From contig DATDXN010000016.1 in the NCBI GenBank assembly GCA_035289305.1, positions 18,315 to 82,314 of the forward strand: DNA of 64,000 nucleotides, in the 5' to 3' direction. Both the position numbers and the translations under genes were made by a program. Below the pieces are notes generated by a model. The model was not told the origin of the DNA. It made no database searches and saw only the letters and a list, made by a program, of their open reading frames with translations. Positions 4,469 to 44,006 of this stretch are shown here, in pieces (position 1 is the stretch's first letter; every line of letters begins with the position of its first letter). Source of the DNA: Patescibacteria group bacterium (GTDB lineage: Bacteria > Patescibacteriota > Microgenomatia > UBA1406 > HO2-37-13b).

Positions 4469-7030
4469 ATGGATACGGGGGAGATTGAGAAACAAGGGCT
4501 TTCGACAAAACACGCCCAAGAACTTCTCAAAATACACGGGTTAAACGAGATACGAGAGAAAAGGGATTTTACTCTTTTTACAGCATTTTTCAGTCAATTT
4601 GACAATTTTTTGATCATTCTTCTTATAGGAGCAGGAATTGTATCATTTCTTTTTGGCGAAAAAATAGACAGTTTTTTTATTTTTTTCATCGTTATTCTTA
4701 ATGCTTTCTTTGGCGTCTATCAAGAATTTAAAGCAGAAAAAGCTATCCAAGCGCTCAAAGTCCTCACGATAAGCACCACCCGTGTCATACGAGACGGGAG
4801 GGAACAAAACATCGATAACAAATACCTTGTGCCCGGAGATATCATATATGTTGAAGAAGGCGCCAAAATCCCCGCAGATTGCCATGTGGTCAAAGCAAGG
4901 CATTTTGAGGTCAATGAATCCTCATTCACCGGAGAATCATTCCCTGTGAGAAAAAACGAAAACAAAAACAATAATCTGCTATATCTCGGAACGGTTGTTG
5001 CAAAAGGAAGAGCATACGCACGAGTAACAAAAATAGGCATGCATACGCGTTTTGGAGAAATTGCGCAAACACTCAAAACTATCAAGGAGAAAAAAACACC
5101 GCTTCAGCGCAAACTCGAAGTCTTTTCAAAACAAGTTGGAATCATTGGTATATGCGCGTCAATCGTGGTATTTTTCCTCTCCTTCATACAAACAAAGACG
5201 TTGTTTGAGAGTTTTCTCTTTGCCGTCAGCCTGGCTGTGGCAGCAGTACCCGAGGGGCTTCCTGCAGTCATGACCATCACCCTTGCGATAGGAGTTGAGC
5301 GCATGAGCAAAAAAAAGGCCATCATCAGGAAATTAAACGCCATAGAAACACTTGGCGCTGTGACGCTTGTTGCAACAGATAAGACTGGAACTCTTACGAC
5401 CAATCAGATGAGTGTGAGAAAAATATGGATTGATAAAAATGTATATGAAGCAAAAACTCCCTCATCCATCTCTCCAGATCATCCATTCAATTTATTTCTT
5501 CTCAATTCAATCCTCTGCTCAACTGCCTCAATTGTCATGAAAGTAAACCATGGAGCATTCGACGTCGTGGGCGACACAACCGAGGGAGCACTGCTTCTTT
5601 TTGCCCATAAAATGAATTACTCACCTGCTGGAATTCGAAAAGAGTGGACAATCCTCGATGAGATGTCTTTTAACCCAGTGACGAAGCGAATGAGCGTTGC
5701 TGTTTCTTCACTCAAAAATCCTCATGAGATGTATGTCTTTAGCAAAGGAGCTCCCGAATCAATTATAGGTATCTGTGACAAAATCATCTGGCGAGGACAA
5801 GAAATAGAATTTGATACAGAGAAAAAAACACTTATTGAAAAGGAATTTCAGTCATTTGCAAAAAAAGGTCTTCGCACGATTGCATTCTCGTATAAAAAGA
5901 AAGATCGCAACCTCCAGTCAAAACAGGTATTTTTGGGATTTGCAGGCATAGCAGATCCTGTGCGAGATGAGGCAAGAGAAGCTGTGGAGAGGGCAAAAAA
6001 AGCAGGAATACGTGTCGTGATGATTACCGGAGACAGCACGCTTACGGCAGAGGCAATCGGAATTGAAGCAGGAATTATCACGCAGGGAGACGATATTCTC
6101 ACCGGTTCCCAAATAGATGCTTCCTCGGACCGGGAGCTTCGTCCTATTCTCGATAAAGTCAAAATATATGCCCGCACGACGCCGGAGCACAAATATCGTC
6201 TGGTCAAGCTTTTGCAGGAAAACAATGTCGTTGCAGTAACTGGAGATGGCGTCAACGATGCCCTCGCGCTTAAACAAGCAGACGTGGGAGTTGCAATGGG
6301 AAAAACAGGAACAGATGTGGCAAAAGAAGCAGCTGATATGATTATCACCGATGACAACTTCGCGACACTCATCAATGCAATTGAGGAAGGACGCAATATC
6401 TTCAATAACATTAAAAATGCCATCAAGTATCTTCTCACGTCAAATACCGCTGAAGTCATCGCAGTTCTTATCACCGTCAGCCTCAAACTACCTATCGTTA
6501 TTACTGCCTTACAAATACTCTATATCAATCTCATAACAGATGGGTTACCTGCACTTTCCCTCGCGTTTTCACCAAAAGATAAAGACATCATGCGCCAAAA
6601 ACCGAGGAAAGCAGAGGCGCTCCTTCAGAAAAAAGACTTTAAATACATCCTCGTAATAGGACTTTTTGGAGGGATACTGACAATTATTTCATTCTTTGTG
6701 GGTATGGGGTTTGATGGCGTGGGATTTGCCCGCACTATGGCTTTTACTACCCTGACACTTATTCAGCCATTTATTCTTCTTGATTTGTGGCTTTCACATC
6801 GCATCATCATTCGCCATTTTAATTTGCTTAAACACCCTGTTTTTTTAAGCTCATTACTTCTTCCGTTTCTCATTCAGCCATTTCTTATATATCAACCGCT
6901 CTTGCAAGATATTTTCAAAACACAGTCTCTTAATCCCTTGTATATTGTGATTGCGTTTTTACTAACGACACTTATTATTCTTCCCATTGAAATAAAAAAG
7001 ATTCTGATGAGGAAAACAGTTACATCTTAA
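4469..7030 (+). CDS. P-type cation-transporting ATPase (P2-type, Ca2+/Mg2+-ATPase-like)
   Basis: Carries the DKTGTLT phosphorylation motif, MITGD, TGDGVNDALALKQADVGVAMG and multiple TM helices. The start is taken at the ATG at 4469; the ORF track begins at a GTG at 4436. Confidence 0.92.
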   Translation: MDTGEIEKQGLSTKHAQELLKIHGLNEIREKRDFTLFTAFFSQFDNFLIILLIGAGIVSFLFGEKIDSFFIFFIVILNAFFGVYQEFKAEKAIQALKVLTISTTRVIRDGREQNIDNKYLVPGDIIYVEEGAKIPADCHVVKARHFEVNESSFTGESFPVRKNENKNNNLLYLGTVVAKGRAYARVTKIGMHTRFGEIAQTLKTIKEKKTPLQRKLEVFSKQVGIIGICASIVVFFLSFIQTKTLFESFLFAVSLAVAAVPEGLPAVMTITLAIGVERMSKKKAIIRKLNAIETLGAVTLVATDKTGTLTTNQMSVRKIWIDKNVYEAKTPSSISPDHPFNLFLLNSILCSTASIVMKVNHGAFDVVGDTTEGALLLFAHKMNYSPAGIRKEWTILDEMSFNPVTKRMSVAVSSLKNPHEMYVFSKGAPESIIGICDKIIWRGQEIEFDTEKKTLIEKEFQSFAKKGLRTIAFSYKKKDRNLQSKQVFLGFAGIADPVRDEAREAVERAKKAGIRVVMITGDSTLTAEAIGIEAGIITQGDDILTGSQIDASSDRELRPILDKVKIYARTTPEHKYRLVKLLQENNVVAVTGDGVNDALALKQADVGVAMGKTGTDVAKEAADMIITDDNFATLINAIEEGRNIFNNIKNAIKYLLTSNTAEVIAVLITVSLKLPIVITALQILYINLITDGLPALSLAFSPKDKDIMRQKPRKAEALLQKKDFKYILVIGLFGGILTIISFFVGMGFDGVGFARTMAFTTLTLIQPFILLDLWLSHRIIIRHFNLLKHPVFLSSLLLPFLIQPFLIYQPLLQDIFKTQSLNPLYIVIAFLLTTLIILPIEIKKILMRKTVTS

Positions 7031-7328
7031 TTTCCACATCAATACCTGCTGGAAGATCAAGATGCATGAGAGAATCAATCGTTTGGTTAGTGGGATTGAT
7101 AATATCAAGAAGCCTCTTGTGGATTTTGAGACCAAAGTATTCTCGACTATCTTTGTCAATAAAGGTTGATTTATTGACGACATATGCCTCTTTTTTTGTC
7201 GGAAGGGGGATGGGCCCCACGATAGAAGCACCAGTCTTTGTGGCAGTATCGACCAATTTTTGACACGTCTCGTCAATGAGACGATGATCAAATGACTTCA
7301 ATTTTATCCGTATCCTTCCTTTTGGCAT
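7020..7328 (-). CDS. rpsJ: 30S ribosomal protein S10
   Basis: The 102-aa ORF MPKGRIRIKLKSFDHRLIDETCQKLVDTATKTGASIVGPIPLPTKK is a classic S10. Confidence 0.95.
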   Translation of the reverse strand: MPKGRIRIKLKSFDHRLIDETCQKLVDTATKTGASIVGPIPLPTKKEAYVVNKSTFIDKDSREYFGLKIHKRLLDIINPTNQTIDSLMHLDLPAGIDVEIKM

Positions 7329-35848: not shown

Positions 35849-36910
35849 TTAGTCATTTAACCAGAATACAACCTGATTTTTTAATTGGAGAGAAAGCCTA
35901 TAAGCATTTGCGTGACCAAGATACCCAAGGTAAGATTGAACCGATTGATTCAATAACCCAGAAGATATTTTATTCATCTTGTAAAGTTGAACTTTTTGGT
36001 AAATCTTTTTAAATATTCTTCTTTTTGTCTTTGTTCTGGGTAAAACGAAGTGAGGAAAGATTACATATCCCAAAAAGTCTACGCCCAGATAATAGTTCTT
36101 TATTTCGATTTTTTGTGGATGTAATGATAACGTCAATTTAGAATTGAGAAATTCCTTTATACTTGTTATTAACCCTTCGAGGTATTCCCTACTCTCTGAC
36201 AAAATTATAAAATCATCCGCATAACGAATGTAATATTCTACTTTAAGTTCATGTTTTATATAGCGATCTAAAGGATCGAGGTAAATGTTAGCAAATAATT
36301 GTGAAGTGAGATTACCAATTGGCATACCCTTGGGAAATTTCAGATCTGTTGTAAATTCTGAACTAAAACTACTGACAATTTCTTTTAATAACCACAAAAA
36401 GTCTTCGTCCTGAATTCTTTTGTTCAGTAATTTTATAAGTATCTCGTGATCAACATTGGCAAAAAACTTTTTAATGTCGCATTTTAAAGCAAACAATGGA
36501 AAAGTATTATTTTTACTTGCCTTCCTTGAAAATCTGATAAATGCCTCAATGGCTTTAAGAGTTCCTTTTTCTCTGCGGCAGGAATACGAATGAGTATAAA
36601 ATGTTGAATCAAATATTTTTTCTAATAATCTGCTTGCGAGATGGTGAACAACCCTATCTTTCACACAAGCTTTTGATATGTGGCGGACTTTCGGATCCCT
36701 AATATAAAATGATTTATATCCACCATGCTCGTATGTTTTATTTTGCAAGTTTTGATGCAACTCGAATAGGTTATCTTCTAAAAATCTTGCAAAAGCTACA
36801 ACATCGGTTTTTTTCTTTTTGCCGATTATAAACTCGTCCCACGCTTGGAAAACAGCTTCAATCGTGCTACTATGAGAGTAGATGGTATGCCAAATTCTCA
36901 TGGTTTTCAA
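35849..36910 (-). CDS. Diversity-generating retroelement (DGR) reverse transcriptase
   Basis: YADD box (YIRYADDFIIL) and the DGR-specific motif-4 PIGNLTSQLFANIYL (I/LGxxxSQ). The N-terminus KKKKTDVVAFARFLEDNLFELHQNLQNKTYEHGGYKSFYIRDPKVRHIS is typical of DGR RTs. Length is about 350 aa. Confidence 0.85.
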   Translation of the reverse strand: MKTMRIWHTIYSHSSTIEAVFQAWDEFIIGKKKKTDVVAFARFLEDNLFELHQNLQNKTYEHGGYKSFYIRDPKVRHISKACVKDRVVHHLASRLLEKIFDSTFYTHSYSCRREKGTLKAIEAFIRFSRKASKNNTFPLFALKCDIKKFFANVDHEILIKLLNKRIQDEDFLWLLKEIVSSFSSEFTTDLKFPKGMPIGNLTSQLFANIYLDPLDRYIKHELKVEYYIRYADDFIILSESREYLEGLITSIKEFLNSKLTLSLHPQKIEIKNYYLGVDFLGYVIFPHFVLPRTKTKRRIFKKIYQKVQLYKMNKISSGLLNQSVQSYLGYLGHANAYRLSLQLKNQVVFWLND

Positions 36911-37264
36911 TCAAATAACCGAACTTTTGATTTTCCTATTTTTCAAAAAATATACGAAACATATAAACGTTTCTATTGTTATCTCGTCAATTTTCCCAAA
37001 AAAGATAAATATACCCTTGGTCAACGTTGCGAGAATGCGCTTTTGGATTTTTTAGAAACTATCGTAATAGCAGGAGGATTATCTAAAACTGAAAAATTTC
37101 CTGTATTGCAAAAGGCAAGTACAAAGCTTGATTTAGCAAAAATATTCATAAGATTGTGTAAAGATTTAAAAATTCTTGATAATAAAAAATACCTTGAACT
37201 GGAATCTTCTCTCCAAGAAATAGGCAGGATGCTTGGTGGTTGGATTAAATCCTCCTCCACTTAA
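36887..37264 (+). CDS. avd: Accessory variability determinant (Avd), a four-helix-bundle protein
   Basis: FPKKDKYTLGQRCENALLDF...LDLAKIFIRL...LQEIGRMLGGWIKSS matches the four-helix-bundle/Avd family. It is encoded antisense to the RT, TR and target. Confidence 0.7.
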   Translation: MPNSHGFQSNNRTFDFPIFQKIYETYKRFYCYLVNFPKKDKYTLGQRCENALLDFLETIVIAGGLSKTEKFPVLQKASTKLDLAKIFIRLCKDLKILDNKKYLELESSLQEIGRMLGGWIKSSST

Positions 37265-37274
37265 AGAAAATAAT

Positions 37275-37395
37275 ACTACCGCAACACGGAAACCGATGTT
37301 ATCGTTCGAGTTATCAGGTTGATTCCAATTGGCGTTCCCAGCACCACCGAGGTCAGAGTTACCAACCATGAGACGGTTCGAACCACCGGACTCAC
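37275..37395 (-). repeat. DGR template repeat (TR), 121-bp core
   Basis: It aligns base-for-base with 37821-37941. The minus-sense TR has A wherever the variable repeat differs, and is Asn-codon rich (VGNSDLGGAGNANWNQPDNSNDNIGF). Confidence 0.8.
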
Positions 37396-37760
37396 GCGTG
37401 TATTGCCCCTTTTCTTTCCTGAAGTAAGTATGACCTACTTCATTGTTACCACTGAATGTTAATCCAAAACACCTTATCTTTATATTCGAACCGAGATGGT
37501 CTTTAGACATTAAAGACTATCTCCTGTATTTAACATGGCTCAATCATTTCTTATTGATGCCTTCAAAAAGGGACAAGTAGTTTCATCTTCCTATTTGCTC
37601 TCTTTTGACAGGCGTACCCATCAAAACTCGGGCTTTAAATAAAAAGTGAGATTTCGTGAGATGTAGGCGTACCCACATCTGCATTAACAAAATCTATTGT
37701 GAAGCATAAAGAAGAATAAGGAAAAAATCAAGTGTAAATGCTATTTCTATTTATAGTCAT

Positions 37761-37778
37761 CTTTTAAAATTTTAAAAG
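37761..37778. other. Perfect 18-nt AT palindrome about 29 nt downstream of the target stop codon; a possible DGR hairpin or terminator
   Basis: CTTTTAAAATTTTAAAAG read directly from the sequence. Confidence 0.4.
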
Positions 37779-37806
37779 AGACCAAAAGAACCAAAGATTC
37801 AAAGTA

Positions 37807-40410
37807 TTAAGAACCGAAAACTACCGCAACACGGAAGCCGATGTAACCGCCCGAGGTCCCAGGCCGATCCCAATCGGCGTTCCCAGCACCACCGAGGTCA
37901 GAGCGACCAACCAGGAGACGGCGCGAACCACCGGACTCACGATATTCATCTTCTACCCACTCATAGGTATTAGTCTGTCCCCATCCTTCACGATTACCCA
38001 ATAAATTCCATTCTAAAGCTCTTAATAGTCGCATATCTGCTCTACCTACCAAACCAACGGTGGAGAGCACATCAGAGGTGATCCTCTGTATACCGTCTTG
38101 AGCAGTATTCCAGGTGATTTTGAATCTGTCAGAAAAACCAAGCATGGTAGTAATAGGGGTTTGGGCATAGTGGTTGCCAAAAGCTGGTTTCTCAAGGGTT
38201 TCAACAGCCATCCATTGTCCCGGCAAGGTTGGGAAATTGATTTTGTCTGCCTTTACCTCTTTCCAATACCACTTCATCAAGTTTCTTACCTTCGTGTGGT
38301 CAGCTTTGTCTGTATCTGATAATGACTCATATGGCTTCCAGTTGGGGTAATGAACATTTAATTCTTGTAAATACTCCTCAACGCTTTTATTGCGTAAGCT
38401 GCTTTGCAGTAAATCGAGCTTTGGGATAAAACGTAAAATCATACCAAGATCTTCTAATTTTCTCTTTACTTCTGGAGTAACATCAGCAGGGAGCGGCGCA
38501 ATATCTACGTGAGTACCCAATATATCCTGCCAAGCTCTTTGCTCGGCAACTTGTATTTCCGACACGGCCTCTTGCCTTCCTGCTCCTGTATCGACAGTAT
38601 CTCCCATTGGATCTTCATTACCGAGCGCTACCTCTCCTGCCATTTCCGAAGGAAGAATATAACTCTTGTCTTGATGAGGAATTTCAACCTGTATATCGGC
38701 CGTTGTGTCGGTGATTAGACCAAAAGCACGAAAGATTTTTTGTAGAGTTCGTCTCTCTTCTGGAACACTCATCGTTTTGGGATCCGTGACAAACTCACGA
38801 AGTTTATCGCTCATATAATGAGCAAAGTTTTGTCCTCTGGCAGAAGCCAGTTCCCATTCACCAAAGAGTTTAAAGAGCGTCCCTGGGTCAAGAAAATTGG
38901 TATTCAACGTTGTATCAGTGTTTCTTTGAGCATCAATGCCAAGAAGAGTCCTCATTTTTGTCGAAAAACCTTCAAAGTCGCGGTTGTGAATCCTTTGCAT
39001 CATTTCTGCAGCTTTAGTCAATTGTTCAACATATTTAACCTCATTCTGGCTCAGTTTTAATACTCCGCTTTCTGAAATTAACTTTGCCCGGATAATATCA
39101 TTCATCTCAGAAGCAGGCATATAACTTACTTCAACTCCTGTTAACTCACGAAGGATTGCAGGATCCATTTCTTCACGCTGCTTGGTCCTTTCATCTTTGG
39201 GATTTCCTGTAAAAACTTCAATAAAATTATTGGTTACATCAAAAACCTGTCCGTTAAAGCCGGGTATCTGGATCCGGTCCCCTGCACGGGCACCCATCAT
39301 GAATTTTGCAGCTAGTTGTGTTCTGGTTGAACCCCCGGTGTATTCCTCATGAATAACACCCACACCTCTTTCCAATGCTTTGGGTACAGGTCCTGGTTTC
39401 ATACCGCTCTGCACACCACCTAGTTCATCAGTCCATAACTCCCTGTACCCGAAAAGGTCGCGGGGAGTTGTGCCTTCATGCCAGTTAATAAGCTCATAGC
39501 CGCCTGTAAGATTGTTAAGAGCATAAAAAGCTAATTGTGTTTTACCTGTACCGGTTGAACCAACAAGAAAAATCTTTTTTCCTGCCAGTGCCTCACGGGT
39601 AATACGGTCAATCAGATGTTCTCTGGAGAGAGTCATGACAAAACCTTTCTCCTGAAGCTGTCTTTTATACTCCAATAACTTCTGCGTTTCAAGATAACCA
39701 AGAGTAGCAGGGGAGGCTGTGCCTTCAATACCTTTTTTTTGTTGTTCCAGTTCATCTAATTTACCCTGGAAAAAAGAGGTCTGATCGACTGAACTTTGAG
39801 TCAGCTTCCCGTGTTGTTGCTTATCTTCCAGATATCTTTTATACATTGCCTTCTTAAGCTTTCTGGTAACTCTGTCAATATCCCGGACCTGTCGTAGGGA
39901 TCGACGAGCTGCGTGATAGCGAGGCAACTCTTCATTGAATTCTTTTTCAAATCTGTCTCTTACTTGGGAACTTGCCAACAGTGCTGAGAGTCTGTGTTCA
40001 ATTTGCTTATGACGTTGCCCACCCTGGAGCTTATCTACATCTGGTTTGAGATGTAAAACCTCGTCAAGCTGGGTTTCCAGCTCCTCCAGTCCGCTTTTTT
40101 TACGGGGAATTTCTCTCCCATTTCCCGGTACACCCTCGGCGGTTAAATCAACATCTTTTATTTCAGCTATATCAGAAGAAGAGGGAAGGTAATATTCTTC
40201 CAGGTACCCTAATACTGCAAAACACTTATTTTGGATCTCTGCTTCAGATAACTCAGTTTGAGCAGCAGGCTGGGCTTTAGGGGAAATAAACCTTTTCCAG
40301 ACTAGAGGAGACAGGCGCTGGCGTGCTAATGGAGTAATCAACCAATCAGGAGCCGATGTTCTTGTGGGCAATAGTGTATCTGTTGCTTCCGCCATAAGTC
40401 TCTCTATCAT
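37807..40410 (-). CDS. DGR target protein: cytoplasmic P-loop (AAA+/MoxR-like) ATPase with a C-terminal C-type-lectin/FGE-fold variable domain
   Basis: Walker A KIFLVGSTGTGKTQLA. C-terminus ...YRESGGSRRLLVGRSDLGGAGNADWDRPGTSGGYIGFRVAVVFGS carries the variable repeat. No signal peptide or TM helix. Confidence 0.75.
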   Translation of the reverse strand: MIERLMAEATDTLLPTRTSAPDWLITPLARQRLSPLVWKRFISPKAQPAAQTELSEAEIQNKCFAVLGYLEEYYLPSSSDIAEIKDVDLTAEGVPGNGREIPRKKSGLEELETQLDEVLHLKPDVDKLQGGQRHKQIEHRLSALLASSQVRDRFEKEFNEELPRYHAARRSLRQVRDIDRVTRKLKKAMYKRYLEDKQQHGKLTQSSVDQTSFFQGKLDELEQQKKGIEGTASPATLGYLETQKLLEYKRQLQEKGFVMTLSREHLIDRITREALAGKKIFLVGSTGTGKTQLAFYALNNLTGGYELINWHEGTTPRDLFGYRELWTDELGGVQSGMKPGPVPKALERGVGVIHEEYTGGSTRTQLAAKFMMGARAGDRIQIPGFNGQVFDVTNNFIEVFTGNPKDERTKQREEMDPAILRELTGVEVSYMPASEMNDIIRAKLISESGVLKLSQNEVKYVEQLTKAAEMMQRIHNRDFEGFSTKMRTLLGIDAQRNTDTTLNTNFLDPGTLFKLFGEWELASARGQNFAHYMSDKLREFVTDPKTMSVPEERRTLQKIFRAFGLITDTTADIQVEIPHQDKSYILPSEMAGEVALGNEDPMGDTVDTGAGRQEAVSEIQVAEQRAWQDILGTHVDIAPLPADVTPEVKRKLEDLGMILRFIPKLDLLQSSLRNKSVEEYLQELNVHYPNWKPYESLSDTDKADHTKVRNLMKWYWKEVKADKINFPTLPGQWMAVETLEKPAFGNHYAQTPITTMLGFSDRFKITWNTAQDGIQRITSDVLSTVGLVGRADMRLLRALEWNLLGNREGWGQTNTYEWVEDEYRESGGSRRLLVGRSDLGGAGNADWDRPGTSGGYIGFRVAVVFGS
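37821..37941 (-). repeat. DGR variable repeat (VR) at the 3' end of the target gene
   Basis: 17 mismatches against the TR across 121 bp. 15 are at positions where the TR coding strand has A; the other 2 are non-A changes, one near the 3' (IMH-like) end. Confidence 0.8.
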
Positions 40411-40444: not shown

Positions 40445-43102
40445 CTATAGTTTTGATAATTGTTTCATTAATAATTTATGTCTTACCAGAGTGGCTTCCC
40501 TCACGTCATCAATTACAACTGCTGTATCCGGGTCTGCCGGATCATGGCAGACAATTTTAATATCCTGCGCCTCGCTTCCAAATCCTATACCTTGCACTAC
40601 AACACCGGCTGCCCGAAGCTCTTTAATTTCGTTGATACATCCGGCCTGATCGTCTACATCACCGTCTGAAACAACAGTCAAAACTTTCGCATAACCTCCT
40701 TTTTTAATCTTTTGTAAAGTGGCAGGATCCAGTGCTTCCCGATATTGTTTTAATGATTCACGAAGACCTCTTGATGACTGATTATGTGATTTTAACACAC
40801 CGTCAAGCTCAACAAGACCTCTTTCAGTAATAAAATCTGTGGATTCTTGGGCAACAGAAGTCCAATCACCAAATACTGCCACTCTTGATTTAACTGCCAA
40901 AGGTGTAGTCATACATCCTCTGTATCGGGAAAGTCCCAGTCGTTCATTAAGATTTTTAATGTTATATTCACTGCTTAGCACCATCTTCCGCTGTTCATCA
41001 GCAGGCAGGCCGCTCATTGACCCGGAAATATCCAGAATAAAATCATCTTCAAAAACAGAAACTTCTACTCGTTCTTTTTGTCTTACGTGTGACATCTGGT
41101 ACCCCAAAGGGTCATCCTCGTACGAACGAATATCGACAAATGCTGTCACAGAATCATCCAAAATTTCACCTTCGCTCTGTCTCACAGGACCTTTATATAC
41201 CTGCTGGGGAATTTCCCTGCGTTTATAAAGTAAATCAAATAACTGTCGCCATTCATCGTATATGGTACTTTGTCTGTGACTGATACTGGACTGCGCAGGA
41301 ACTGGAGTTCTGTTGACCCCGTTAATCCAGGTTTCCAGCTGATGCCACTGCTCCCATGCAATTCCTTTTTCCTGCTCAAACTGCTTGGCAGCTAATTCTT
41401 CCGGAGTGGGAGGTTGAATTGTTTGTTGATCTTGTTGAGAAAATTCTTGGTACAATTTTTCTATTTCCTCTTGGCTTAATTCAGATTGACCAACTAAAGA
41501 TTCTCCAAAATCCCCTTCAAGAGGTTCCTGATCACTATCCTGTTCTTCCTGCTTATCCTGTTTTTTTGCAGGTGTGGCATCCATACCTTTATGTATCCAT
41601 ATTTCCTTATCGGGATCCCAAACCTCTCCCCAGGCATGTTTATCCATTCCTTTAGCCTCAACAATTGCAAAATCAAAACGAGGATCTTTACTCCCTACAT
41701 AAGACCCTGTTGCAATACGGGAAGCAATCCTTATCCTTTTACACAGTTCATCCCGAAAAATATTTGCCCAGTAACAGTGGGCAATCCCTGTCTCGGTCAT
41801 TTTAGTCCAGAGTTCCTGTGGGAATACAGATAAATACAGGGAATCAATTTGACCTATTTCTGCAGCATCTTCCGGGTAACGAAACTTTTTACGGACATAG
41901 AGAGCAATTTCTCGTGCTTTTTGAACATCATTCATCCAATTTTGAGAAGATAATTCATCAAGGAACTCCTGTGTCTGTGGATCAACAGCTCCTCCCACAG
42001 GGATAAGATCACGATCACTAGGGGAAACATTGAGTTGATTAGATTGTGTTTCAGTCAGAACAAAATCGAATGAAAATTTTCCTGATGCTGCTTGTCTTTG
42101 TGTTCTGGGGTCAAGATAAACAATACCAAGATCATCTCTCATAAAGTGGAGTGAGTTAGCTGGCTGGAGCGTAGAAACTAATGGCAGAGTTCCATAAGGA
42201 AGTTTAACAAGAACTTCCTGTCCTGGTTGTATAACCCCTTCATACGTCCTTTTGGTTTTCCACACCGATTCATCTTCAGGAGCCTCATCAATATCCCACG
42301 ATTGTTTCATGCCTGATTCCTTAACAATTTGCCTTGTGCTTGGATCGTAGCGACATACCTGTTCTCTATAGTAGCCCCCGTAAAAAGGAGTAACTCTAAC
42401 AGCAATATCTGCCTCCTGAATAGGTTCTTTATCGTCGTTGATATCTTGAGTTTGAAATGGTCGATATTCAAACTTTTGAGATTGACCTGTTTGTCTATCA
42501 GTAGCAGCGAGTTCATCAATAAGAGGTTTCAAATGAGTTGCAAAATTTTGCCCGTCAAATCGAAAGTGACGACCACAGGCGATATAATCAACTAAACTTT
42601 GACCTCGGGACTTTGGGATTTTCTTGACCGCTTGAGTTACTGCATCTGAAAGGTGGTCTGGATATCTACCTGTTAGTACGTATGTATCAAGCGCCCATTG
42701 AAATTCTTGAACAAGCGTTTGATTTTGAGAATTAATGGGTTGATCACGAAGGATATCAGGGTTACTTTCTTTCAATCTTGCTAATCCTTGCCATCTAAGG
42801 ATTGGCTCACTGGCTTCGGGATAATCACGAATTGTTTGTAACAAGATACTTGCATCTTTTCGAATTGCTTGGGTGAGTCCCAAATGACCAGCCACCTGTC
42901 GCAAAGTTGCTATGCGCGCCTGGTCTTCGTTTTGAAATAAAGTCGTATTAACGCGCAGTTTTTGGTGACCTTCTGACCAAGCCATTCTCGCGCCTGTTTT
43001 TCTGGATAACACTACTACATCGCCATATACTTTTCTTCCTTCTTCGTGAGGAATTAAAGCACTTTCAACTGATGTGATCCCGACAGACTGTCTTTCATCC
43101 AT
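40445..43102 (-). CDS. Transglutaminase-like cysteine-protease domain plus C-terminal von Willebrand factor A (VWA) domain protein
   Basis: TGase-like GIAHCYWANIFRDELCKRIRIASR and HAWGEVWDPDKEIWIHKGMDATP (Cys-His-Asp). VWA MIDAS motif DISGSMSG...TVVSDGDVDD. The start is taken at MDERQ (43100-43102), because the longer ORF would overlap the divergent rmlD-like gene. Confidence 0.65.
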   Translation of the reverse strand: MDERQSVGITSVESALIPHEEGRKVYGDVVVLSRKTGARMAWSEGHQKLRVNTTLFQNEDQARIATLRQVAGHLGLTQAIRKDASILLQTIRDYPEASEPILRWQGLARLKESNPDILRDQPINSQNQTLVQEFQWALDTYVLTGRYPDHLSDAVTQAVKKIPKSRGQSLVDYIACGRHFRFDGQNFATHLKPLIDELAATDRQTGQSQKFEYRPFQTQDINDDKEPIQEADIAVRVTPFYGGYYREQVCRYDPSTRQIVKESGMKQSWDIDEAPEDESVWKTKRTYEGVIQPGQEVLVKLPYGTLPLVSTLQPANSLHFMRDDLGIVYLDPRTQRQAASGKFSFDFVLTETQSNQLNVSPSDRDLIPVGGAVDPQTQEFLDELSSQNWMNDVQKAREIALYVRKKFRYPEDAAEIGQIDSLYLSVFPQELWTKMTETGIAHCYWANIFRDELCKRIRIASRIATGSYVGSKDPRFDFAIVEAKGMDKHAWGEVWDPDKEIWIHKGMDATPAKKQDKQEEQDSDQEPLEGDFGESLVGQSELSQEEIEKLYQEFSQQDQQTIQPPTPEELAAKQFEQEKGIAWEQWHQLETWINGVNRTPVPAQSSISHRQSTIYDEWRQLFDLLYKRREIPQQVYKGPVRQSEGEILDDSVTAFVDIRSYEDDPLGYQMSHVRQKERVEVSVFEDDFILDISGSMSGLPADEQRKMVLSSEYNIKNLNERLGLSRYRGCMTTPLAVKSRVAVFGDWTSVAQESTDFITERGLVELDGVLKSHNQSSRGLRESLKQYREALDPATLQKIKKGGYAKVLTVVSDGDVDDQAGCINEIKELRAAGVVVQGIGFGSEAQDIKIVCHDPADPDTAVVIDDVREATLVRHKLLMKQLSKL

Positions 43103-43151
43103 AATTGTCAAAATTTTTTGTGTACAGTATATAAACAGTATATAATATGTT

Positions 43152-44006
43152 ATGAATAAAAAAATGGTAGTGGCGGCGACGGGTCTTGATGGACTCGTGG
43201 GATCACGAGTGAGAGAACTACTTGAGGATAAAATACAGTTCATACCTCTACCCAAAGAAATCATTGATATAACGAAAAAAGATTCGGTAAAACAGGCTTT
43301 ACAGTCAATTGACTTTGATATATTTCTGCATCTTGCAGCGTATACCAATGTAGACCTTGCGGAAAAAGAAAAAAGTCTAGCGTGGAGCGTTAATGTTGCG
43401 GGAACAAAAAATGTATTTGAAGTAGTTTCATCGCGTGAAAAAAAAATGATATACATCTCCACAGACTTCGTGTTTGATGGAGAAAACGCGCCATTTACCG
43501 AAGATTCTCCTCCCCGTCCCATCTCGCACTATGGCATGACGAAATATGAAGGAGAGAAAATCGTCAAAGATCATGCAATGATTGTCCGTTTCAGCTACCC
43601 TTATCGAGCATACTATGAGCCAAAAAAAGATATTGTGCGATCAATTCTTGCTGCTTTGAAAGACAAAAAACACATACAGGGAGTCGTTGATCAAATAATC
43701 ACGTTTACCTTCATTGACGATATTGCGCATGCACTACACTATCTTTTTCTCAACTATGCGCCTGAAATCTATCATGTTGTCGGAAAAGATAGTTTATCAG
43801 CCTATGATGCAATTATGACTATAGCTAAAGTTTTTGAGCTTGATACTTCTCTCGTCTCAAAAACGACATATGATGAGTTTTATAAAGGTAAAGCAAAACG
43901 TCCCAAAAAAGGAATTGTGAAATCAAAGAAAAATGTTTTTTACCCGATGAAAAGTTTAAAGGAAGGTTTAATGGAGATTAAAAAACAAAATTGTCTTTTA
44001 AAGTAA
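43152..44006 (+). CDS. dTDP-4-dehydrorhamnose reductase-like (RmlD family) NAD(P)-dependent sugar reductase
   Basis: The 284-aa ORF has the HYGMTK catalytic YxxxK region and is short-chain Rossmann-like. Confidence 0.7.
   Translation: MNKKMVVAATGLDGLVGSRVRELLEDKIQFIPLPKEIIDITKKDSVKQALQSIDFDIFLHLAAYTNVDLAEKEKSLAWSVNVAGTKNVFEVVSSREKKMIYISTDFVFDGENAPFTEDSPPRPISHYGMTKYEGEKIVKDHAMIVRFSYPYRAYYEPKKDIVRSILAALKDKKHIQGVVDQIITFTFIDDIAHALHYLFLNYAPEIYHVVGKDSLSAYDAIMTIAKVFELDTSLVSKTTYDEFYKGKAKRPKKGIVKSKKNVFYPMKSLKEGLMEIKKQNCLLK

What the first reader, a model, noticed from the sequence alone, without database searches (positions are those of the whole stretch)
36845..37806. Atypical DGR layout: Avd antisense and overlapping the RT start head-to-head, with a roughly 410-nt structured spacer between target and TR
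Canonical cassettes are target-avd-TR-RT on one strand. Here avd (plus strand) lies between TR and RT but on the opposite strand, and its 5' end overlaps the RT 5' end by about 15-25 nt. The TR is separated from the target stop codon by about 410 nt of non-coding sequence rather than by avd.
Basis: seen in the sequence. Interest (0 to 1): 0.55.

Follow-up and report, generated by a model that had tools for sequence, protein, structure and literature searches.

The report
Standard CPR-type DGR with structured TR leader
This is an active protein-diversifying retroelement from a Patescibacteria (CPR) bacterium; its "odd" gene order is the normal, already described one for that group, but the 410-base gap holds a conserved folded RNA just upstream of the template that I did not find described.

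Summary
The anatomy is as described. Target 37807-40410(-), 410-nt gap, TR ~37274-37396(-), avd 36887-37264(+), RT 35849-36901(-). The avd and RT start codons overlap by exactly 15 nt.

The layout is not atypical for its lineage. It is Architecture B3, "TR-(avd)-RT", of Wu et al. 2018, which they report for 90% of CPR DGRs. All ~75 of 80 related loci with enough upstream sequence have avd antisense and head-to-head with RT. 55 have the same 267-472-nt VR-to-TR gap.

The cassette works in nature. Nine near-identical target variants from metagenomes differ almost only in the VR.

The gap holds two separable modules:
- A VR-linked tail of 8-nt-phased YTTG repeats plus a hairpin.
- A TR-linked unit: a -10-like box and a ~300-nt structured leader RNA. 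It has two UACG-capped hairpins, and a long-range helix that ends 7 nt before the TR.

Covariation is strong (87-94% of cells paired against 36-54% in slid controls; 59 of 60 pairs compensatory). Two covariance models hit once per locus, always abutting the TR. Rfam 15 and the papers I could read do not describe the leader.

Verdict: a new member of a known kind, with one possibly new RNA element. Its function as an RT-Avd scaffold or cDNA stop is inferred, not shown.

The parts
37807..40410 (-). DGR target gene (867 aa): AAA_5 ATPase domain with the variable region at the C-terminus
   Evidence: ORF. Pfam AAA_5 E=4e-07. Natural variants differ almost only at residues 829-857.
37819..37941 (-). 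Variable repeat (VR). Homology to the TR runs on, degraded, to 37809.
   Evidence: Repeat family D1 and the alignment.
37778..37806 (-). VR-linked tail: phased YTTG repeats (ACTTTGAATCTTTGGTTCTTTTGGTCTC)
   Evidence: Mean 3.4 YTTG per 65 nt after VRs against 0.88 in background, with a modal spacing of 8 nt. The window itself has 3.
37760..37779 (.). Perfect AT palindrome TCTTTTAAAATTTTAAAAGA, at the position where relatives have a GC hairpin plus T-run after the target gene
   Evidence: Sequence and alignment A1.
37703..37708 (-). -10-like hexamer TATGCT, 8 nt upstream of the first base of helix P1. Proposed promoter of the TR RNA.
   Evidence: 42 of 49 leader hits scored have a hexamer matching TATAAT at 5 of 6 or better within 28 nt upstream, against 17% in background. 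The window's own entry was mis-oriented in that script, so its hexamer was read from the sequence.
37573..37695 (-). TR leader, 5' domain. P1: 37687-37694 with 37650-37657. P2: 37672-37680 with 37659-37667, UACG loop at 37668-37671. P4: 37617-37626 with 37603-37612, UACG loop at 37613-37616. P3 and P5 are also present.
   Evidence: CM R1 hit E=5e-20, the only hit in the window. Covariation. Minimum-free-energy fold.
37396..37585 (-). TR leader, 3' domain. Invariant GAAACUACUUG, then long-range helix P6 (37565-37576 with 37403-37414). P6 encloses P7, the single-stranded AAAUACAG motif, the P8 hairpin (about 37493-37523) and an extra hairpin.
   Evidence: CM R2 hit E=8.5e-12. Covariation. Fold.
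37274..37396 (-). Template repeat (TR). Degraded homology continues to 37264 and abuts the avd stop codon.
36887..37264 (+). avd (125 aa from ATG 36887; upstream in-frame ATG at 36872 and TTG at 36845), antisense to the TR and RT strand
   Evidence: Pfam bAvd, NCBIfam NF033474 above its cutoff, and a full-length match to the clade HMM.
36887..36901 (.). 15-nt head-to-head overlap of the avd and RT start regions. Codons 1-5 of each gene are antisense to codons 1-5 of the other.
   Evidence: Sequence. The same 15-nt overlap occurs in L001, L002 and L005.
35849..36901 (-). DGR reverse transcriptase (350 aa; alternative TTG start at 36910)
   Evidence: Pfam RVT_1. Called as 350 aa in public assemblies. 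Identical to NCBI HLC94345.1.

Best explanation
**What it is.** This is an ordinary, active diversity-generating retroelement of the type that dominates in CPR/Patescibacteria: Architecture B3, target - TR - (avd) - RT.

**Proposed mechanism.**
1. The target mRNA ends in the first ~50-100 nt after the VR, at the phased YTTG repeats and hairpin.
2. A separate promoter, with its -10 box about 8 nt before helix P1, then starts a non-coding RNA.
3. That RNA consists of a ~300-nt folded leader followed directly by the TR.
4. avd and RT are transcribed divergently from back-to-back start codons. Each gene's promoter and 5' end therefore lie inside the other's coding sequence.
5. The RT-Avd complex copies the TR RNA into adenine-mutagenised cDNA, which replaces the VR.
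6. I infer that the leader is the protein-binding scaffold of this RNA. Its two stem-loops (9-10 bp in the window) capped by UACG tetraloops resemble the UNCG-capped Avd 'grapple' of the Bordetella phage RNA.
7. Helix P6 ends 7 nt upstream of the TR. It is placed like the 'cPRT Stop' duplex that ends cDNA synthesis in the phage.

**Shown here:** gene identities, the A-specific TR/VR differences, natural VR hypervariation, conservation of the layout, the RNA structure, and its physical linkage to the TR.

**Inferred:** transcript ends, protein binding, the stop function, and where priming occurs.
For: **Components**
- RT, Avd and target identities.
- 17 of 21 TR/VR mismatches fall at TR adenines.

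**Known architecture**
- Wu et al. 2018 define B3 = TR-(avd)-RT and report it for 90% of CPR DGRs.
- Of 80 RT relatives (45-65% identity, nearly all Patescibacteria MAGs), all ~75 with upstream sequence have avd on the opposite strand abutting the RT start.
- Start codons lie within -15 to +25 nt of each other in 38 of 46 scorable loci.
- The TR sits next to the avd stop, and the VR-to-TR gap is 267-472 nt in 55 loci.

**Activity**
- Nine natural target variants differ almost only in VR residues 829-857.

**Two separable modules**
- Where the target lies elsewhere (L023, L042, L055, L075), and in L049 which has two targets, the YTTG repeats and hairpin stay with each VR.
- In those same loci the box plus leader stays with the TR.
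- In L005 the leader-TR unit is inverted, yet the leader still abuts the TR.

**RNA structure**
- Sequence-only alignment A3: 87.4% of cells paired against 37-43% in slid controls, 27 of 36 pairs compensatory, 0 of 500 shuffles as good.
- CM R1 gives 49 hits and CM R2 gives 59 significant hits in 805 kb. Each locus has one hit, always flanking the TR.
- Alignment A4: 89.7% paired, 36 of 36 pairs compensatory.
- Alignment A5: 94.1% paired, 23 of 24 pairs compensatory.
- The window's leader folds with z=-5.64.

**Promoter**
- A -10-like box precedes 42 of 49 leaders, against 17% in background.

**Phage precedent**
- Handa et al. preprint 10.1101/2023.10.23.563531 describes the UNCG stem-loop and stop duplex in the Bordetella phage.
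Against: - No transcript data exist. The promoter, the RNA ends and the claim that the leader and TR form one RNA are inferred from sequence alone.
- In the Bordetella phage all essential RNA elements other than an 11-nt upstream strand lie downstream of the TR. The priming adenosine is downstream too.
- I found no convincing primer site or template:primer pairing in the leader.
- The window lacks the hairpin that many relatives have just after the TR (at least 23 of 59 by a strict scan). Its TR-downstream sequence, which is antisense avd, is not detectably structured (z=-0.45). How cDNA synthesis is primed here is therefore open.
- Alignments A4 and A5 are fitted to the covariance models, which inflates their pair counts. 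A3 and A2 are not fitted.
- Paul et al. 2017, the main paper on CPR DGRs, could not be read. 'Undescribed' is therefore provisional.
Confidence: 0.85

Rival explanations
1. The cassette is a genuinely aberrant or decaying DGR. A local inversion flipped avd, the antisense Avd ORF is not expressed, and the element is inactive or depends on an Avd encoded elsewhere.
For: The layout differs from the Bordetella phage prototype (target-avd-TR-RT). Public gene callers do not even call avd at this locus.
Against: - The same orientation occurs in all ~75 informative relatives and is a published architecture.
- The Avd matches the clade profile end to end (E=1.6e-47), and there is no second Avd in the window.
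- NCBIfam scores it above the equivalog cutoff.
- The VR is hypervariable among natural variants.
Confidence: 0.02
2. The spacer and TR region encode a small protein: the 114-aa ORF at 37166-37510(-) that public pipelines call. It would be a truncated paralogue of the target C-terminus, and the conservation would reflect coding.
For: An ATG-initiated ORF spans the TR in the VR frame, preceded by GGAG. It is called as a gene in ENA and JGI assemblies.
Against: - The TR-frame ORF is not conserved. Most relatives have stop codons within 10-50 nt upstream of the TR and no ATG.
- It has no Pfam hit.
- It would overlap 99 nt of avd in antisense.
- Substitutions in the region are compensatory in RNA helices, not codon-patterned.
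- The apparent 'pseudo-target' stretch is an extra hairpin that covaries between the window (GAAGUA/UACUUC) and L001 (GAAAGG/CCUUUC).
Confidence: 0.03
3. The leader is a cis-regulatory RNA, such as a riboswitch, attenuator or protein-titrated leader. It would control how much TR RNA (and, by read-through, RT mRNA) is made, rather than act as a structural part of the reverse-transcription RNP.
For: - It lies at the 5' end of a transcription unit and is large and multi-helical, with highly conserved single-stranded stretches (AAAUAAAAUACAG, CAGUG..GAUG) that look like ligand or protein sites.
- In the window no terminator separates the TR from antisense avd and RT. Read-through into RT is therefore possible.
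Against: - No terminator/antiterminator alternative is evident between the leader and the TR.
- P6 closes the domain 7 nt from the TR in every class, a geometry that parallels the phage stop duplex.
- Many relatives have a terminator-like hairpin right after the TR (at least 23 of 59 by a strict scan), so RT is probably not on that transcript.
- There is no Rfam riboswitch hit.
Confidence: 0.12
4. The conserved spacer acts at the DNA level, for example as a recombination or homing site or as a protein-binding array, and the RNA fold is incidental.
For: The VR-proximal YTTG octamer repeats look like a binding array. They travel with the VR, the DNA that receives the cDNA.
Against: - For the leader, G-U pairs and strand-specific compensatory changes in 59 of 60 modelled pairs indicate selection on a single-stranded RNA of the TR strand.
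- The leader travels with the TR, not with the VR.
- The DNA-level idea remains plausible only for the YTTG and hairpin tail.
Confidence: 0.05

Closest known systems
DGR cassette Architecture B3, 'TR-(avd)-RT' (Wu et al. 2018, Nucleic Acids Res 46:11, PMC5758913). This is the predominant layout of CPR/DPANN DGRs.
   Same: - The order and strands of target, TR, antisense avd and RT.
- CPR host.
- A target with an AAA/Midasin-like ATPase domain and a C-terminal VR, which that paper also notes for CPR targets.
   Different: Nothing in the layout. In the sections I read, that paper does not mention the back-to-back or overlapping start codons, the constant ~270-470-nt VR-TR gap, or any RNA structure upstream of the TR.
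Bordetella phage BPP-1 DGR (mtd-avd-TR-brt) and its DGR RNA (avd 3' end - TR - Sp), from Handa et al. 2018 (PMC6182149) and preprint 10.1101/2023.10.23.563531
   Same: - An RT plus pentameric-type Avd, and A-specific mutagenesis.
- The TR is flanked by structured RNA.
- A UNCG-capped stem-loop of ~9-11 bp.
- A duplex immediately upstream of the TR.
   Different: - Here avd is antisense and lies between the TR and RT, so a 140-nt non-coding Sp downstream of the TR does not exist.
- The large structured RNA lies upstream of the TR.
- The duplex next to the TR's 5' end (P6) pairs with an upstream strand, not a downstream one.
- No priming site has been identified.
Rfam RT-1 to RT-19 motifs (Weinberg et al. 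2017, PMC5737381). RT-10 corresponds to the BPP-1 TR-brt spacer.
   Same: Structured RNA motifs found next to bacterial RT genes. At least one belongs to a DGR.
   Different: No Rfam 15 family matches the window at gathering score. None matches 36800-37900 at E<=10 apart from chance miRNA and snoRNA hits. The leader is upstream of the TR and separated from RT by avd.

Membership tests
Diversity-generating retroelement (DGR) | Reverse transcriptase of the DGR type (RVT_1 fold, YxDD catalytic box, I/LGxxxSQ motif) | tested here: met
   Pfam RVT_1 E=1.6e-24. YADD and IGNLTSQ are visible in the translation. All 80 nearest relatives sit in DGR cassettes.
Diversity-generating retroelement (DGR) | TR/VR repeat pair whose differences fall at adenines of the TR | tested here: met
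   A 133-nt repeat at 84% identity. 17 of 21 mismatches are at TR adenines, and 17 of 27 TR adenines are changed.
Diversity-generating retroelement (DGR) | VR at the 3' end of a protein-coding target, hypervariable among natural copies | tested here: met
   The VR ends 10 nt before the stop codon. Nine natural variants differ at 15 VR positions, with only about 6 scattered substitutions elsewhere apart from a 5-residue N-terminal length difference.
Diversity-generating retroelement (DGR) | C-type-lectin (or Ig) fold carrying the VR | not tested
   No Pfam, NCBIfam or PDB sequence hit for the C-terminal 164-197 aa. No structure prediction was run.
Diversity-generating retroelement (DGR) | Accessory variability determinant (Avd) | tested here: met
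   PF22296 bAvd E=7e-19. NF033474 DivGenRetAVD scores 91.6 bits against a cutoff of 80.
Architecture B3 of Wu et al. 2018 (TR-(avd)-RT) | TR upstream of RT on the RT strand, with avd between them on the reverse strand | tested here: met
   Coordinates. Definition quoted.
BPP-1-type DGR RNA (avd-TR-Sp) | Avd-binding stem-loop and other structured elements in a non-coding spacer immediately downstream of the TR | tested here: not met
   TR homology abuts the avd stop codon. The 151 nt downstream fold no better than shuffles (z=-0.45). No hairpin plus T-run was found there. Many relatives do have a hairpin at that position.
BPP-1-type DGR RNA (avd-TR-Sp) | 'cPRT Stop' duplex formed between the segment just upstream of the TR and a segment downstream of the TR | tested here: not met
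   The segment just upstream of the TR (37403-37414) instead pairs with 37565-37576 further upstream (P6). 12 of its 13 pairs are compensatory across 62 sequences.
Rfam 15 RNA families (including RT-1 to RT-19) | Covariance-model score at or above the family's gathering threshold | tested here: not met
   0 hits in the whole window at gathering score. Only chance-level hits at E<=10 in 36800-37900.

The most novel reading that the evidence does not exclude
CPR-type (B3) DGRs keep their RNP-organising RNA on the 5' side of the template. It would be a ~250-300-nt leader that forms an undescribed RNA family and is the permuted functional counterpart of the Bordetella phage Sp RNA. Its features are two UACG-capped hairpins, a conserved AAAUAAAAUACAG strand, and a long-range helix that closes 5-10 nt before the TR. 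On this reading it recruits RT-Avd, sets the end of cDNA synthesis and possibly supplies the primer. The 8-nt-phased YTTG repeats after each VR would be the matching target-site mark.
Probability: 0.3. Interest if true: 0.6.

Novelty: new member of a known kind. Interest (0 to 1): 0.4.

Why it matters
The layout itself adds nothing new. It is one more example of the CPR-type DGR cassette.

The comparison does turn up things that would matter to people working on DGR mechanism:
- **Mechanistic contrast.** All mechanistic knowledge comes from one phage element, whose essential RNA lies downstream of the template. Here, and in at least 59 relatives, that position is mostly occupied by an antisense gene. 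A large, strongly covarying RNA sits upstream instead.
- **Possible generalisation.** If that leader is the RT-Avd scaffold, the 'RNA envelops the enzyme' principle would be conserved while its topology is permuted.
- **Experimental handle.** The leader gives a defined, compact RNA (leader + TR, about 430 nt) for reconstituting a CPR DGR.
- **Annotation.** Public gene callers miss avd here and call a spurious ORF across the TR. The two covariance models could help locate TRs in CPR genomes.

Tried and rejected
1. **Conserved small ORF across the TR.** Rejected because the frame is closed in most relatives.
2. **Upstream flank of the TR as a decayed copy of the target's C-terminal domain.** Replaced by an extra RNA hairpin that covaries between the window and L001.
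3. **Pairing between the conserved leader strand AAAUAAAAUACAG (or GAACUUCUUG) and the TR 3' end or its downstream flank, as a template:primer or stop duplex.** No consistent complementarity. In one subclass GAACUUCUU is a direct repeat of the TR 3' end, while in the window only 5 nt are complementary. Left unexplained.
4. **Sigma-70 consensus scan for avd and RT promoters.** Fewer promoter-like sites than in shuffles and nothing usable. Histograms of -10-like hexamers around the back-to-back starts were suggestive for avd but not decisive.
5. **Rfam at gathering and at permissive thresholds.** Nothing.
6. **Paul et al. 2017 (Nat Microbiol), the key paper on CPR DGRs.** Not held in the library.
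7. **First start-codon script.** Too strict for 27 loci that had no candidate start upstream of profile position 1. Overlap statistics therefore rest on 46 loci.
8. **mafft-qinsi.** Not available in the sandbox.
9. **PDB sequence search of the VR domain.** No hit. A first attempt was out of frame.
Full report
**1. What is in the window**

Nearly everything lies on the minus strand (ORFs and sequence).
- An 867-aa gene at 37807-40410 carries an AAA_5 ATPase domain.
- A non-coding stretch follows at 37397-37806.
- A 133-nt repeat at 37264-37396 is 84% identical to 37809-37941, the 3' end of the 867-aa gene.
- A reverse transcriptase follows at 35849-36901 (RVT_1, E=1.6e-24).
- Between the repeat and the RT, on the plus strand, is an Avd gene ending at 37264. 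It matches Pfam bAvd at 7e-19 and NCBIfam DivGenRetAVD at 91.6 bits against a cutoff of 80.

Read on the minus strand, 17 of the 21 repeat mismatches are at adenines of the 37264-37396 copy. That copy is therefore the TR and the other is the VR.

The latest canonical start of avd is ATG 36887. The RT starts at ATG 36901, or at TTG 36910. The two genes therefore overlap head-to-head by at least 15 nt. In that minimal case, codons 1-5 of each gene are exactly antisense to codons 1-5 of the other.

There is only one Avd and one RT in the 64 kb.

**2. Is the layout atypical?**

It is not atypical for this lineage. Wu et al. 2018 (PMC5758913) classify DGR cassettes and define Architecture B3 as "TR-(avd)-RT", with parentheses meaning the reverse strand. 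[quoted passage not shown]

The window's RT and target are identical or nearly so to NCBI proteins HLC94345.1 and HLC94347.1 from a "Patescibacteria group bacterium" MAG.

I fetched the 80 closest RT loci from one genome per species (45-65% identity, almost all CPR MAGs).
- Every locus with enough sequence upstream of the RT (about 75) has an Avd ORF on the opposite strand abutting the RT start.
- In 46 loci where starts could be assigned, the two start codons lie within -15 to +25 nt of each other in 38, and 20 overlap.
- The commonest arrangement is CAT-NNN-ATG. The window's nearest relatives L001 and L002, and also L005, share its 15-nt overlap.
- The TR lies -24 to +60 nt from the avd stop.
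- In 55 loci the target sits upstream on the same strand with a VR-to-TR gap of 267-472 nt, median 351.

The gene order is already published.

**3. Is the cassette functional in this arrangement?**

Yes. The protein cluster of the target holds nine natural variants from different assemblies. Apart from a 5-residue N-terminal length difference and six scattered substitutions, the variable positions lie at residues 829-857, within the VR. Four variants carry 12-14 changes there, and two others have chimeric VRs. The RT sequence is found unchanged on 14 contigs.

**4. What the 410-nt 'spacer' is**

Aligning 55 VR-to-TR gaps shows an ordered set of conserved features:
1. Directly after the VR, four to five YTTG(A/G) repeats. 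They average 3.4 per 65 nt against 0.88 in background, with a modal spacing of 8 nt.
2. A hairpin, usually GC-rich and followed by a T-run. In the window it is a perfect 20-nt AT palindrome at 37760-37779.
3. A -10-like box, often TGnTAnAAT.
4. A ~230-300-nt conserved block running up to the TR.

Natural rearrangements separate these features into two modules.
- In L023, L042, L055 and L075 the target lies beyond the RT. In L049 there are two targets. In all of these the repeats and hairpin follow each VR, while the box and conserved block stay immediately upstream of the TR.
- In L005 the block-TR unit is inverted, running co-directionally with avd, yet it still abuts the TR. The A-specific mismatches (22 of 23) follow that strand.

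**5. The conserved block is a structured RNA**

*5' domain (window 37573-37695).* This was tested on a sequence-only MAFFT alignment of 18 sequences.
- The five helices I read off the alignment (P1-P5) give 87.4% paired cells, against 37-43% when partners are slid by 1-3 columns.
- 27 of 36 pairs show compensatory changes, and 0 of 500 shuffles reach any measure.
- P2 and P4 are stem-loops (9 and 10 bp in the window) capped by UACG tetraloops. In the window the sequence is GGGUACGCCU, occurring twice.
- A covariance model of this domain finds 49 hits in 805 kb, one per locus, all just upstream of the TR on the TR strand.
- In the window it finds only 37573-37695(-), E=5e-20. On those 49 hits, 89.7% of cells pair and all 36 pairs show compensatory changes.

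*3' domain (window 37396-37585).*
- It begins with an invariant GAACUUCUUG (GAAACUACUUG in the window).
- Its next 12-13 nt pair with the 12-13 nt that end 5-10 nt before the TR, forming helix P6.
- P6 encloses a hairpin (P7), a nearly invariant single strand AAAUAAAAUACAG, a second hairpin (P8) and CAGUG..GAUG.
- RNAalifold finds 17 of 24 pairs compensatory in 17 sequences.
- The model gives 59 significant hits, each ending at the TR. On these, 94.1% of cells pair and 23 of 24 pairs are compensatory.

*The window's leader on its own.*
- It folds to -88.5 kcal/mol (z=-5.64) and reproduces P1, P2, P4, P6 and P8.
- A hexamer matching TATAAT at 5 of 6 or better lies within 28 nt upstream of the 5' domain in 42 of 49 hits, against 17% in background. 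Distances cluster at 4-7 nt. In the window it is TATGCT at 37703-37708.
- The 114-aa ORF that public pipelines call across the TR is not conserved as an open frame.

**6. Comparison with what is known**

In the Bordetella phage the TR RNA needs an 11-nt upstream strand and a 140-nt downstream spacer (Sp). Sp supplies:
- an 11-bp UNCG-capped Avd-binding stem-loop right after the TR;
- the priming adenosine;
- the downstream strand of the 'cPRT Stop' duplex;
- a thumb ring and an RT-binding stem-loop.

That study surveyed only 40 nt upstream and 100 nt downstream of the TR in other DGRs.

In the present clade the downstream side is short.
- Many relatives have one strong hairpin, often followed by a T-run, between the TR and the avd stop. 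A strict scan finds it in at least 23 of 59 loci, and more are visible by eye. It could be an Avd-binding stem-loop, a bidirectional terminator, or both.
- The window has none. Its downstream sequence is simply antisense avd, with z=-0.45.

The big structured RNA is upstream. The duplex adjacent to the TR's 5' end pairs with an upstream strand rather than a downstream one.

No Rfam 15 family matches, including the RT-associated motifs of Weinberg et al. 2017. I found no description of the leader in Wu et al. 2018, in Paul & Eren 2022 or by full-text searches. Paul et al. 2017 could not be read.

**7. Most likely mechanism, and what remains open**

- **Shown:** a B3-type DGR that diversifies its target in nature, and a leader-TR unit that behaves as an autonomous, orientation-independent module with its own promoter-like box.
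- **Inferred:** the leader is the RT-Avd docking scaffold, with the UACG hairpins acting as 'grapples'. P6 is the barrier that ends cDNA synthesis at the TR's 5' edge. avd and RT are expressed from promoters embedded in each other's first codons.
- **Open:** where cDNA synthesis is primed, what the YTTG repeats do, and whether the window's TR RNA reads through antisense avd into RT.

**8. Verdict**

The finding is real but its headline is not new. The layout is already described and is the norm in CPR, so the cassette is a new member of a known kind.

The part worth carrying forward is the TR leader RNA, and secondarily the VR-linked repeats. The leader is strongly supported as a conserved structure and appears undescribed in what I could access.

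Interest is 0.4 overall: low for the layout, moderate for the RNA.

Noticed in passing
window 37778-37806(-); after every VR in L001-L080, e.g. L013 5121-5170 and L049 4121-4170 and 5115-5165: Four to five YTTG(A/G) repeats spaced about 8 nt apart follow directly after each VR, before the hairpin. They travel with the VR, not with the TR. Their function is unknown. One possibility is a target-site mark, by analogy with the element downstream of IMH in the Bordetella phage.
   Followed up: partly
L042 about 7070-7110(-), L055 about 4590-4640(-), L075 about 7040-7080(-): Where the target is remote, long tetranucleotide microsatellites ((CCAT)n or (CCAA)n, 8-11 units) lie ~100-130 nt downstream of the VR. 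These are slippage-prone tracts next to a hypermutated gene.
   Followed up: no
L081 5901-6390 (= window about 37021-37510): Public gene calls for this same locus list the spurious 114-aa ORF across the TR and a 42-aa ORF, and do not call avd at all. Antisense avd genes in CPR DGRs may therefore be under-annotated systematically.
   Followed up: partly
L005 5341-6018: A variant cassette in which avd, a shortened leader and the TR run co-directionally, while the RT, still head-to-head with avd, is on the other strand and the target lies beyond the RT. The avd/RT divergent pair is the invariant unit. The leader-TR module can flip.
   Followed up: yes
L007 1743-3282: A second, more distant RT (E=1e-52) has an Avd ORF upstream on the same strand and no hit to either leader model. 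It is a possible non-B3 DGR in the same genome that lacks the leader.
   Followed up: no
proteins P0004-P0009 (variants of window 37807-40410): Two natural variants have chimeric VRs: P0006 has the 5' half of one VR type and the 3' half of another, and P0007 is the reverse. Residues 829-830 change from S-R to F-Y, which needs non-adenine changes relative to the TR (TCGAAC). This suggests partial retrohoming, recombination or non-canonical mutagenesis.
   Followed up: partly
between the TR end and the avd stop in many relatives, e.g. L013 5615-5645, L042 5613-5645, L061 1145-1170: A strong hairpin, often flanked by an A-run and a T-run, sits at the convergent junction of the TR RNA and avd. It looks like a bidirectional terminator, an Avd-binding stem-loop, or both. 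The window lacks it, because TR homology runs into the avd stop codon.
   Followed up: partly
window 40445-43522(-): The gene upstream of the target encodes a transglutaminase-core plus VWA protein. The window ORF is 1025 aa, but public assemblies call it as 885 aa. Together with the AAA_5 target it resembles a MoxR-type ATPase/VWA pair, so the diversified protein may act with this partner.
   Followed up: no
leader motif GAACUUCUU (e.g. L049 5346-5354) and the TR 3' end (e.g. L049 about 5588-5598): In one subclass the invariant leader motif GAACUUCUU is repeated in the same sense at the 3' end of the TR and VR (GGAACUUCUU). In the window and L001 the corresponding leader motif (AACUAC) is instead complementary to GUAGU at the TR and VR 3' end. 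No consistent rule was found.
   Followed up: partly
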